This document shows positions 44,445 through 46,360 of a stretch of DNA of 64,000 nucleotides, one piece after another. Under the pieces are notes generated by a model, which was not told the DNA's origin, ran no database searches, and saw only the letters and a program-made list of their open reading frames with translations. The stretch's first letter is position 1, and every line of letters starts with the position of its first letter. The stretch is from the human T2T-CHM13v2.0 reference genome, Homo sapiens: NCBI RefSeq assembly GCF_009914755.1, contig NC_060932.1; one strand, written 5' to 3'. Position numbers and translations under genes: made by a program.

Positions 44445-44610
44445 AATATTAATTTAAGGGGTACAAATGCAGTTTTGTTACATGGATATATTGCATATGG
44501 GTGACACCTGGATATTTAGTGTAACCATCAGCAGAATAATGTGCATTGTGCCCATTAAGTAATTTGTCATCTCTAACCACCCTCTCACCCTTCTGAGTCT
44601 CCAGTGCAAA
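44445..44610 (-). mobile_element. L1PB/L1MA 3' terminal fragment
   Basis: gggtacaaatgcagttttgttacatggatatattgc. Confidence 0.75.
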
Positions 44611-44801
44611 TCTATATTTCAAGAGTCAAGATAAAATAATGACATTACTAATTATGCACACATCAAATTACACAAAAGTTATTCACAGAAAGAACTGCTG
44701 ACTCAAGTATGTAGAAAACACAACGCCTGATAGAAAGTATAGAGATTATATCAGTACTCACAATAAAATATTATTTTGAACAGAAGATATTATGAAAAAG
44801 A

Positions 44802-44837
44802 GGGAGGCAGCCATGCTCACCACTATGCCAACAACGC
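44802..44837 (-). pseudogene. tRNA-Gly(TCC)-like 5' half retrocopy (nt 1-36, ending at the anticodon)
   Basis: Reverse complement GCGTTGTTGGCATAGTGGTGAGCATGGCTGCCTCCC versus recalled tRNA-Gly-TCC GCGTTGGTGGTATAGTGGTGAGCATAGCTGCCTTCC, 32/36 identical. Confidence 0.88.
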
Positions 44838-44857
44838 TACACTTAAAAAATATATAT

Positions 44858-45369
44858 ATTCTACTACAAAGACACATGCACACGTATGTTTATTGCAGCA
44901 CTATTTATAATAGCAAAGACTTGGAACAACCCAAATGTCCATCAATAATAGACTGGATAAAGAACATGTGGTGCATATACACCATGGAATACTATGCAGC
45001 CATAAAAAAGAATGAGTTCATGTCTTTTGCAGGGACATGGAAAAAGCTGTAAGCCATCATTCTCAGCAAACTAACATAGGAACAGAAAACCAAACACTGC
45101 ATGTTCTCACTCATAAGTAGGAGTTGAACAATGACAATACATGGACACAGGAAGGGGAACATCACACACCTGGGCCTGTTGGGGGGGTGGGGGTTAAGGG
45201 AGGGAGAGCATTAGGACAAATACCTAATGCATGTGGGGCTTAAAACCTAGATGACGAATTGATAGGTGCAACAAACCACCATGGCACATGTATACCTATG
45301 TAACAAACCTGCATGTGCTGCATATATATCCCAGAACTTAAAGTAAAATTAAAAATAAAAAGAAAGAAA
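44858..45369 (+). mobile_element. L1PA7/8-type 3' end
   Basis: ttctactacaaagacacatgc...ggggcttaaaacctagatgac...cccagaacttaaagtaaaatt plus A tail. Confidence 0.93.
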
Positions 45370-45379
45370 GAAAAAGAGG

Positions 45380-45700
45380 AGAAGGAAGTGGAGCAAAATG
45401 GCCAAATAGAACAGTCCAGCAACTGTCCTCTCCAATAGGAGCACTAAATTGAAAAACTATCCACACAAGAAGCCACCTTCACAAAAATAAAAAAATAAGC
45501 TAAGTGACCCACATACCTGGATTTGACATCATATCAAGAAAAAAGGCATTAAAGGGGGCTGGAAAGACAGTCTTACATTCCTTGCATCACCCCTACCTAT
45601 TTCCTGGCAGTGATGCATGACATGGAGAGAATCTGTTTGCTCCGGGGAGAGAGAACAAAGTAATTTGGTGGCTTTGCACTGAAACGCAGTGCTGTCCAGT
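45380..45700 (+). mobile_element. 5'UTR start of an older L1 (L1PB/L1MA-type)
   Basis: ggagcaaaatggccaaatagaa (remnant of the YY1-like CAAGATGGC motif)...aactatccacacaa. Confidence 0.75.
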
Positions 45701-46312
45701 CCACCTGATTATCTTTCCTGGGAGACTACTGGGTTTCATGGTCCTAGATTTATTTTCATGTCAATGTCTTGGATTATATGCATTTTATTCCTATTTTCAT
45801 GAATAATCCAAATTTGACATTGCAAAATATTTATGTGACTATTTTTCTACCACAGATATCAACAAACATCAGGCTTCTTTGTAGGATACAGGCTCATATT
45901 TTTAAATTTCTATTTCATAAATAGAACATTACTTTGGCTGTTATTTATATTACTGAACCTCAGTTGCAGCTCTCTGCATCATACAGACTTGAGTCTTCAA
46001 CTTCTTTCTGCAAGCATTTTAAATACCTAATAAATGCCTATAATAACTTTCCCAATCATGTTATCCACTCAACTTCAAACATTTTTCAATATTATTTTTG
46101 AGTTCACTTTTTATTACTGATATTTGATAATTTATCATTCTTTTGTTTGAAGTTAGGTATCCATTTTAAGTTATTTTACTACATTGCATTCAAATGTAGA
46201 ATTCCTAAGTTTTAGATTCCGGTTTGAGGTAGACTGTCCCAGTCAGCACTGTCTTCAATATCAACATGTTCAAGTCTGGAGGCATGGAACTCTGGAGTGT
46301 TGTTCAAATCCT

Positions 46313-46360
46313 GTGTGTGTGTATGTGTGTGTATGTCTGTGTCTGTGTGTGTGCGTGTAC
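46313..46360. repeat. Imperfect (TG)n
   Basis: Direct. Confidence 0.9.

What the first reader, a model, noticed from the sequence alone, without database searches (positions are those of the whole stretch)
44794..45379. Inverted tRNA-Gly 5'-half and L1PA captured within one target-site duplication
Seen: GAAAAAGAGG occurs at 44794-44803 and 45370-45379. It brackets (i) an antisense 36-nt tRNA-Gly(TCC)-like 5' half ending exactly at the anticodon, (ii) about 20 nt of AT-rich filler (tacacttaaaaaatatatat) and (iii) a sense 5'-truncated L1PA7/8 3' end with poly(A). The last GG of the left TSD is also the complement of anticodon CC. Known: L1 twin priming inverts a piece of the same L1 RNA; tailless tRNA retropseudogenes and same-orientation U6-L1 chimeras exist; 5' tRNA halves arise by anticodon-loop cleavage and Gly halves are abundant in sperm. 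Inference: the second target strand primed on a different RNA (a tRNA or tRNA half), i.e. twin priming in trans, leaving a fossil of a small RNA present at the L1 insertion site.
Basis: partly seen in the sequence, partly recalled or inferred. Interest (0 to 1): 0.8.

Follow-up and report, generated by a model that had tools for sequence, protein, structure and literature searches.

The report
Inverted tRNA-Gly half fused to L1
A 5'-truncated L1 retrotransposon and a backwards copy of the first half of a glycine tRNA were most likely pasted into human chromosome 8 in one event, a kind of chimera that has already been described in print.

Summary
GAAAAAGAGG occurs only twice in the window (44794-44803, 45370-45379). 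It brackets four parts. The first is an antisense copy of tRNA-Gly(TCC) nt 1-33 (30/33 identical, 32/36 counting the anticodon). The others are a 22-nt AT-rich junction, a 486-bp sense L1 3' end, and a 24-nt A-rich tail.

A repeat this long at this position has roughly a 0.004 chance expectation. Neither the tRNA piece nor the L1 has a repeat of its own longer than 7 nt. Of 39 other Gly-TCC 5' halves examined in the same genome, 36 carry their own close-fitting repeat of 7-22 nt. None abuts an L1.

The best reading is one L1 integration. The L1 poly(A) was primed at the T-rich nick, and the GG-3' end of the second strand primed in the tRNA anticodon (CC).

This is not new. Doucet et al. [quoted passage not shown] Law & Burns 2026 catalogued 21 tRNA/L1 chimeras, mostly antisense halves. 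This locus and this isoacceptor are not in their table.

Two points stay open: whether the template was a pre-cut half or a whole tRNA, and the orthologous empty site, which I could not check.

The parts
44794..44803 (.). Left copy of the target-site duplication GAAAAAGAGG. It extends to 12 nt with one mismatch, starting at 44792. Its last GG is also the complement of tRNA nt 35-36.
44805..44837 (-). Antisense copy of tRNA-Gly(TCC) nt 33 down to 1, 30/33 identical to the human genes. tRNA nt 1 is at 44837. With 44802-44804 the match is 32/36, reaching the third anticodon base.
44838..44859 (.). 22-nt AT-rich junction sequence. It is not a pre-tRNA leader. It aligns weakly (17 of 24 positions, 2 gaps) to the L1 bases just 5' of the truncation point, so it may be degraded L1.
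44860..45345 (+). 5'-truncated L1 3' end (end of ORF2 plus 3' UTR), sense. It differs from the majority of its 13 closest copies at 31 of 487 positions.
45346..45369 (+). A-rich tail of the L1 (19 A in 24 bases, partly decayed to AAAG units).
45370..45379 (.). Right copy of the target-site duplication GAAAAAGAGG. Its last bases may already belong to the 5' terminus of the older L1 that follows.
45380..45701 (+). Context, not part of the insertion. This is a 5'-terminal fragment of about 320 bp from an older L1 family, and it was the target DNA.

Best explanation
This is a single L1 integration that used two RNA templates, i.e. twin priming in trans.

Proposed sequence of events:
1. The L1 endonuclease nicked the minus strand in the T run that is the complement of GAAAAAG.
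2. That T-rich 3' end primed reverse transcription on the poly(A) of an L1PA-type RNA. Synthesis stopped about 490 nt in.
3. The plus strand was then cut 9-10 nt downstream.
4. Its 3' end (...GAGG) annealed by two bases (GG with C35 C36) in the anticodon of a tRNA-Gly(TCC) molecule.
5. It was extended to the very 5' end of the tRNA.
6. The two cDNA ends were joined through a 22-nt junction, which is either filler or badly copied L1. Gap repair duplicated the 10-nt target.

Shown directly: the parts, their orientation, the shared repeat, the exact stop at tRNA nt 1, and the absence of separate repeats.

Inferred: the order of the nicks, the priming step and the joining.

Not resolved: whether the template was a pre-cut 5' tRNA half or an intact tRNA or pre-tRNA primed inside its anticodon loop. 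I lean about 60:40 to the latter.
For: 1. Shared repeat. A 10-nt exact repeat encloses tRNA piece, junction, L1 and tail. Of 127,982 window 10-mers, 173 occur in the 81 nt after the L1, and 72 of those are the region itself. That is about 8e-4 per position, or about 0.004 allowing five offsets.

2. No separate repeats. The best repeat around the L1 alone or the tRNA piece alone is a 7-nt A/T-rich match.

3. Comparison with other halves. In 39 other Gly-TCC 5' halves, the upstream repeat copy sits 0-17 nt from tRNA nt 1 in the 36 halves with a repeat of 7 nt or more. Repeat lengths: 30 with 9 nt or more, 6 with 7-8 nt, 3 with 5 nt or less. These halves start their downstream repeat inside tRNA nt 33-37 and share 0-5 nt with it. 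That matches the window's 2-nt overlap. Only the window's half has an L1 in between.

4. Exact boundaries. The tRNA match ends exactly at nt 1 and inside the anticodon.

5. Nick sites. The nick that fits L1 endonuclease (a T run) is on the strand that primes the L1, not the tRNA (read directly).

6. Compatible ages. L1 31/487 = 6.4%. tRNA 3/33 to 4/36, with P(4 or more of 36 at 6.4%) = 0.20.

7. Uniqueness. The chimera and its left flank are single-copy in the genome.

8. Published parallels. PMC13174262 (sections 10, 11, 17, 18 and Table S3 sheet 7 read) reports 21 tRNA/L1 chimeras, of which 16 are antisense and 9 of those end at nt 35-39 by my count of the sheet. It reports TSDs of 9-19 bp in 8 of 8 checked. 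PMC4476161 (passages) describes inverted U5, U1, U2 and U6/L1 chimeras with the same anatomy and the same model.
Against: - No orthologous empty site could be examined, so co-arrival of the two parts is inferred from one genome.
- The repeat is short and purine-rich, and it sits next to an A-rich tail. That inflates chance matches: 2 of 100 window shuffles reach two copies.
- The presumed nick (T run followed by C) is not the textbook TTTT/AA site.
- The microhomology is only 2 nt.
- tRNA nt 34 is mismatched.
- The 22-nt junction is unexplained. It is longer than the 0-17 nt seen at stand-alone halves, and its match to L1 is weak (shuffle fraction about 0.04 for the modal copies, range 0.007-0.6 across 12 copies).
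- 15 of the 60 non-cluster Gly-TCC hits were not examined.
- The L1 database used held only the 3' 2 kb or so of L1.
Confidence: 0.8

Rival explanations
1. Two independent insertions. In one version a tailless tRNA-Gly half retropseudogene came first, and an L1 later landed between it and its upstream repeat copy. In the other the L1 came first and the tRNA half later landed at its 5' junction. The 10-nt repeat would then belong to only one of the two.
For: - Stand-alone Gly-TCC halves are common: 39 among the 45 hits examined.
- L1 3' ends are very abundant: 11,191 first-look candidates.
- An AT-rich 7-9 nt match (TTAAAAA) exists between the filler and the start of the tail.
Against: - The inner element would need its own repeat. 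The best is 7 nt exact in A/T-rich sequence, and it does not abut the L1 5' end.
- The nested-L1 version leaves the L1 almost without a poly(A) tail.
- The tRNA-second version needs a downstream repeat starting at tRNA nt 33-37, as in the other halves. No match to it lies upstream of nt 1.
- 0 of 39 other halves abut an L1.
Confidence: 0.08
2. The event is the same single event, but the template was specifically a pre-formed 5' tRNA half, cut in the anticodon loop after C36. That is the first reader's 'fossil of a small RNA' and the view of Law & Burns.
For: - The copy ends at C35/C36, just before an A. From general knowledge, not tested here, this is a typical site for anticodon-loop nucleases.
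- No base beyond nt 36 is present.
- In all 23 stand-alone halves, every base past nt 36 can be assigned to the target repeat. The minimum end is 33-36.
- PMC13174262 argues for halves.
Against: - Priming inside the exposed anticodon loop of an intact tRNA predicts the same product.
- Noll et al. 2015 (PMC5322556, passages) looked for truncated RNA intermediates, found none, and concluded that priming is internal.
- Doucet et al. 2015 reached the same conclusion for U5.
- 6 of 39 stand-alone halves keep 3-7 nt identical to the end of the 5' leader of the gene in L003. Those templates were unprocessed nuclear pre-tRNAs, not halves of mature tRNA.
Confidence: 0.35
3. The 33-36 nt piece is not tRNA-derived. 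It would be a chance resemblance or a fragment of a tRNA-related SINE that was already at the site.
For: ARAGORN and Rfam report no tRNA here.
Against: - It is 30/33 identical to the tRNA-Gly(TCC) genes, and the reversed control pattern gives 0 genomic hits against 29 and 84.
- The match starts at tRNA nt 1 and stops in the anticodon, as in 39 other retrocopied halves.
- No similarity continues on either side, which a SINE would show.
Confidence: 0.02

Closest known systems
tRNA/LINE-1 chimeric insertions (Law & Burns, Cell Genomics 2026, PMC13174262; preprint 10.1101/2025.02.02.635956)
   Same: A half-length tRNA (nt 1 to about 37) sits antisense to a 5'-truncated L1 and immediately 5' of it. 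One TSD of 9-19 bp encloses both, with an L1 endonuclease-like site in the L1 orientation. The authors propose twin priming.
   Different: - This locus is not in their Table S3 tRNA sheet of 21 rows. Its only chr8 row is an L1PB4/tRNA-Tyr pair at 122.1 Mb.
- No row there is tRNA-Gly-GGA (TCC). Both Gly rows are Gly-GGY.
- Here 22 nt separate the tRNA and the recognisable L1. In most of their rows the two abut.
Inverted snRNA/L1 chimeras explained by twin priming (Doucet et al., Mol Biol Evol 2015, PMC4476161)
   Same: A small RNA truncated at its 3' side in a single-stranded loop lies in inverse orientation to a 5'-truncated L1. The RNA end and the insertion site share microhomology. The cleavage site looks like an L1 site only when read in the L1 orientation.
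   Different: The template is a tRNA rather than U5, U1, U2 or U6.
Tailless tRNA retropseudogenes (Schmitz et al. 2004, as cited in Noll et al., Genome Biol Evol 2015, PMC5322556)
   Same: The tRNA part is the same: nt 1 to the anticodon loop, no A tail, and an insertion site that overlaps the RNA's last bases. 39 such Gly-TCC copies were seen in this genome.
   Different: Those have their own TSD hugging the tRNA piece. Here the upstream repeat copy lies beyond an inverted L1.
Classical L1 twin priming (Ostertag & Kazazian 2001; cited in both papers, not read here)
   Same: There are two priming events on the two ends of one staggered break, giving an inverted 5' segment next to a sense 3' segment within one TSD. 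An example is L053.
   Different: The inverted segment comes from a different RNA, not from the same L1 transcript.
U6/L1 chimeras formed by template switching or RNA ligation (PMC6789731 seen in search listing only; described in PMC4476161 and PMC13174262)
   Same: A small Pol III RNA is joined to a 5'-truncated L1 within one TSD.
   Different: [quoted passage not shown] That orientation cannot arise here from ligation or template switching.

Membership tests
Antisense tRNA-half/LINE-1 chimera (twin-priming type) | A tRNA-derived segment lies directly 5' of a 5'-truncated L1, in the opposite orientation. | tested here: met
   tRNA nt 1 is at 44837 on the minus strand. Recognisable sense L1 starts at 44860. 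The 22-nt gap may itself be L1.
Antisense tRNA-half/LINE-1 chimera (twin-priming type) | The tRNA segment runs from nt 1 at the L1 side to the anticodon loop at the flank side. | tested here: met
   nt 1-33 match at 30/33 and nt 1-36 at 32/36. Identity beyond nt 36 is 8/36.
Antisense tRNA-half/LINE-1 chimera (twin-priming type) | One target-site duplication encloses both parts, and neither part has one of its own. | tested here: met
   The repeat is 10 nt exact (12 nt with 1 mismatch). The alternatives give only 7 nt. The empirical chance is about 0.004.
Antisense tRNA-half/LINE-1 chimera (twin-priming type) | [quoted passage not shown] | tested here: inconclusive
   The tail is present (19 A in 24 bases). 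The nick falls in a run of five T followed by C, or C then A. That is T-rich but is not the canonical TTTT/AA. No scoring matrix was applied.
Antisense tRNA-half/LINE-1 chimera (twin-priming type) | Both parts arrive in the same evolutionary interval, shown by presence or absence in other species. | not testable with these tools
   No primate genomes are held. No paralogous empty site exists in this genome. The divergences are merely compatible.
Stand-alone tailless tRNA retropseudogene | Its own TSD lies immediately around the tRNA fragment. | tested here: not met
   The best repeat around the tRNA piece alone is 7 nt, and one copy ends about 30 nt from the tRNA piece. In contrast, 36 of 39 other halves have a hugging repeat of 7-22 nt.
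Classical (cis) L1 twin-priming inversion | The inverted 5' segment is L1 sequence from the same transcript. | tested here: not met
   The inverted segment is tRNA-Gly(TCC), not L1.
Functional tRNA gene | A full cloverleaf with both halves. | tested here: not met
   ARAGORN finds 0 genes and Rfam finds no tRNA match. The 3' half is absent.

The most novel reading that the evidence does not exclude
The template was a genuine 5' tRNA-Gly(TCC) half cut after C36. On that reading the locus is a germline record, tens of millions of years old, of a tRNA half sitting at an active L1 integration complex. Together with the dozens of stand-alone Gly-TCC halves in the genome, it would mark this isoacceptor's 5' half as a preferred substrate of the L1 reverse transcriptase.
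Probability: 0.3. Interest if true: 0.45.

Novelty: new member of a known kind. Interest (0 to 1): 0.3.

Why it matters
The locus adds one well-dissected example, and a new isoacceptor, to a class catalogued only recently. It also shows that the published catalogue of 21 loci is incomplete.

The side survey bears on an open point between published views, namely whether the template is a pre-cut tRNA half or an intact tRNA primed inside its anticodon loop:
- All 39 retrocopied Gly-TCC halves examined end in the anticodon loop.
- In the 23 tabulated, every base past nt 36 can be assigned to the target repeat.
- Six of the 39 still carry pre-tRNA leader bases.

It changes no concept. The mechanism was proposed for snRNAs in 2015 and for tRNAs in 2025-26.

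Tried and rejected
- **Pre-tRNA leader as the source of the filler.** The filler matches the leaders of 8 full-length Gly-TCC loci at 3-9 of 22 positions, which is chance level. Rejected.
- **Recovering the empty site from the older L1's own target duplication.** The older L1 is only a 5' fragment of about 320 bp. No L1 3' end or ORF follows it, and the left-flank 19-mer is unique in the window. Not possible.
- **A paralogous empty site in the same genome.** The chimera and the left flank 44607-44803 are single-copy. None exists.
- **Filler as a continuation of the L1.** It aligns at 17 of 24 positions with 2 gaps. The shuffle fraction is 80-85 of 2000 for the modal copies, and ranges from 14 to 1232 of 2000 across 12 copies. 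Left undecided.
- **Rfam and ARAGORN on the region.** Nothing relevant was found.
- **Completing the survey.** 15 of the 60 non-cluster Gly-TCC hits could not be fetched.
- **Coordinate look-ups in the paper's spreadsheets.** Phrase searches of the form 'chr8 1148' gave nothing, but neither did the positive control, so they were discarded. The digit-prefix search, whose positive control worked, was used instead.

Full report
**What is there**

The window is CHM13 chr8:115,940,001-116,004,000. Read on the plus strand, the region contains, in order:
- unique left flank ending ...tattat;
- GAAAAAGAGG (44794-44803);
- a 33-36 nt stretch (44802/44805-44837);
- 22 nt of AT-rich sequence (44838-44859);
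- 486 nt of sense L1 3' end (44860-45345);
- a 24-nt tail with 19 A (45346-45369);
- GAAAAAGAGG again (45370-45379);
- about 320 nt that belong to the 5' terminus of an older L1 family (45380-45701).

The 10-mer occurs only at these two places in the 64 kb. Shuffles give a mean of 0.21 copies, and 2 of 100 reach two copies.

**The tRNA piece is real**

- The 33-mer 44805-44837 has 28 other matches in the genome at 3 mismatches, and none for the reversed control pattern.
- Most of those matches lie in the 7.4-kb tandem array on chromosome 1. ARAGORN calls tRNA-Gly(tcc) at L003, L004 and L025.
- Against those genes, the reverse complement of 44802-44837 is identical at 32 of 36 positions. The differences are at nt 7, 11, 26 and 34.
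- tRNA nt 1 is window base 44837.
- Beyond nt 36 identity falls to 8 of 36.
- nt 35-36 (CC) are also the complement of the last GG of the left repeat, and nt 34 is mismatched. So the secure tRNA part is nt 1-33, and the end point is ambiguous between nt 33 and nt 36.
- ARAGORN and Rfam see no tRNA in the window, as expected for half a molecule.

**The L1 part and the junction**

- The L1 segment gives 11,191 first-look candidates. The 40 that were scored are 89-91% identical.
- It differs from the column majority of its 13 closest copies at 31 of 487 positions.
- Relatives continue 5' of the truncation point with sequence that the 22-nt junction resembles only weakly: 17 of 24 positions with two gaps. 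Between 14 and 1232 of 2000 shuffles reach the observed score, depending on the copy, and 80-85 of 2000 for the modal sequence.
- The junction may therefore be degraded L1 or untemplated filler.
- It is not a pre-tRNA leader. It matches the leaders of 8 full-length Gly-TCC loci at 3-9 of 22 positions.

**One event or two?**

- The longest exact repeat between the sequence left of the tRNA piece and the sequence after the L1 is the 10-mer (12 nt with one mismatch).
- The best repeat around the L1 alone, or around the tRNA piece alone, is 7 nt of A/T-rich sequence that is not at the right place.
- As an empirical null, 173 of 127,982 window 10-mers occur in the 81 nt after the L1, and 72 of those are the region itself. 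That is about 8e-4 per position, or about 0.004 allowing five offsets.
- The T-rich strand that an L1 endonuclease would nick is the one whose 3' end primes the L1 poly(A). The end that must have primed the tRNA copy (...GAGG-3') is purine-rich. That fits a second-strand break rather than a first nick (read directly).
- The divergences of the two parts are compatible: P = 0.20 for 4 or more differences in 36 at 6.4%.

**Comparison with other Gly-TCC halves in the same genome**

The canonical 33-mer has 84 matches at 3 mismatches or fewer, and 0 in the control. Setting aside 23 gene or cluster copies and the window leaves 60 hits.

I examined 45 of them. Fifteen could not be fetched.
- Six are full-length.
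- Thirty-nine are 5' halves that end in the anticodon loop.

Among the 39 halves:
- 30 have their own flanking repeat of 9-22 nt, 6 have one of 7-8 nt, and 3 have none that is convincing.
- In the 23 tabulated, the upstream copy lies 0-17 nt from tRNA nt 1. The downstream copy starts within nt 33-36 and overlaps the tRNA end by 0-5 nt.
- None has an L1 between the half and its repeat.
- With a small L1 database (13 loci, roughly the 3' 2 kb of L1), only the window's half abuts L1. The other hits are Alu sequence in the flanks.

The window's element thus has the same tRNA boundaries and the same kind of overlap (2 nt) as the stand-alone tailless retropseudogenes. The difference is that its second repeat copy is displaced to the far side of an inverted L1.

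**Mechanism**

The most economical account is one target-primed reverse transcription event with two templates:
1. The L1 RNA was primed at the first nick.
2. A tRNA-Gly(TCC) molecule was primed in its anticodon by the second-strand end and copied to its 5' end.
3. The two cDNA ends were then joined.

I put this at 0.8. Two independent insertions remain possible at about 0.08. That rival needs an inner repeat that is not there and, in one version, an L1 almost without a tail.

**Half or whole tRNA?**

The locus cannot tell.

For a pre-cut half:
- The copy stops at C36 before an A.
- In all 23 tabulated stand-alone halves, every base past nt 36 can be assigned to the target.
- Law & Burns argue for halves.

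For internal priming in the exposed loop:
- Noll et al. searched for truncated intermediates and found none.
- Doucet et al. reached the same view for U5.
- Six of 39 stand-alone halves keep 3-7 nt identical to the end of the 5' leader of the gene in L003 (gat, agat, ctagat, atcagat). Those templates were therefore unprocessed pre-tRNAs.

I lean 60:40 to internal priming.

**What is already known**

- Doucet et al. 2015 (PMC4476161, passages read) described 3'-truncated U5, U1, U2 and U6 copies inverted next to L1. These show junction microhomology and an endonuclease site only in the L1 orientation. [quoted passage not shown]
- Law & Burns 2026 (PMC13174262; sections 10, 11, 17, 18, 40 and Table S3 sheet 7 read) list 21 tRNA/L1 chimeras. 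By my count of the sheet, 16 are antisense and 9 of those end at nt 35-39. They found TSDs in 8 of 8 checked cases and an endonuclease motif in 6 of 8, and they invoke tRNA halves and twin priming.
- This locus is not in that sheet. Its only chr8 row is an L1PB4/tRNA-Tyr pair at 122.1 Mb.
- No coordinate beginning 1146, 1147, 1148 or 1150 occurs in the four spreadsheets. In the RNA-repeat file all 12 occurrences of the 1149 prefix fit one chr2 row. In the third file only the first two of 36 occurrences were shown, both chr2. The positive control was found.
- The hg38 position used for that look-up is my own estimate.
- No row is tRNA-Gly-GGA.
- The PDFs among the supplements could not be read.

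**Verdict**

However, the kind of element and the mechanism are already in print, so this is an uncatalogued member of a known class. Interest is 0.3.

Noticed in passing
L053 (G000:C8:134146333-134149822), around locus position 1990: A classical cis twin-priming L1. Antisense L1 ORF2 sequence abuts sense L1 a few bases 5' of the same position where the window's L1 is truncated.
   Followed up: no
L071, L072, L080, L090, L091, L094 (stand-alone tRNA-Gly-TCC halves): Six of 39 halves carry 3-7 nt at tRNA nt 1 (gat, agat, ctagat, atcagat). These are identical to the end of the 5' leader of the tRNA-Gly(TCC) gene in L003 on chr1, so their templates were unprocessed pre-tRNAs.
   Followed up: partly
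window 45380-45701: A 5'-terminal fragment of about 320 bp from an old L1 family (709 first-look candidates, 70-75% identity for the 40 scored). It ends abruptly and is followed by non-L1 sequence. A 5'-only L1 piece is unusual, because L1 copies are normally truncated at the 5' side.
   Followed up: partly
L084 (G000:C10:22508326-22508655): Two tandem copies of a tRNA-Gly-TCC half together with its target repeat. This is a local duplication of a tailless retropseudogene.
   Followed up: no
window 44838-44859: If the junction is L1, most of its differences from the L1 bases 5' of the truncation point are transitions (C to T, G to A), clustered in 24 nt (alignment). That would be far more change than in the rest of the element.
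   Followed up: no
L004-L024 (G000:C1:160.58-160.73 Mb): 21 evenly spaced copies (about 7.4 kb apart) of an array carrying tRNA-Gly(TCC). In the one unit checked (L004) the neighbours are tRNA-Glu, tRNA-Asp and tRNA-Leu. The Gly genes are identical over the 33 nt compared.
   Followed up: no
window 46310-46360: An imperfect (GT)n microsatellite.
   Followed up: no
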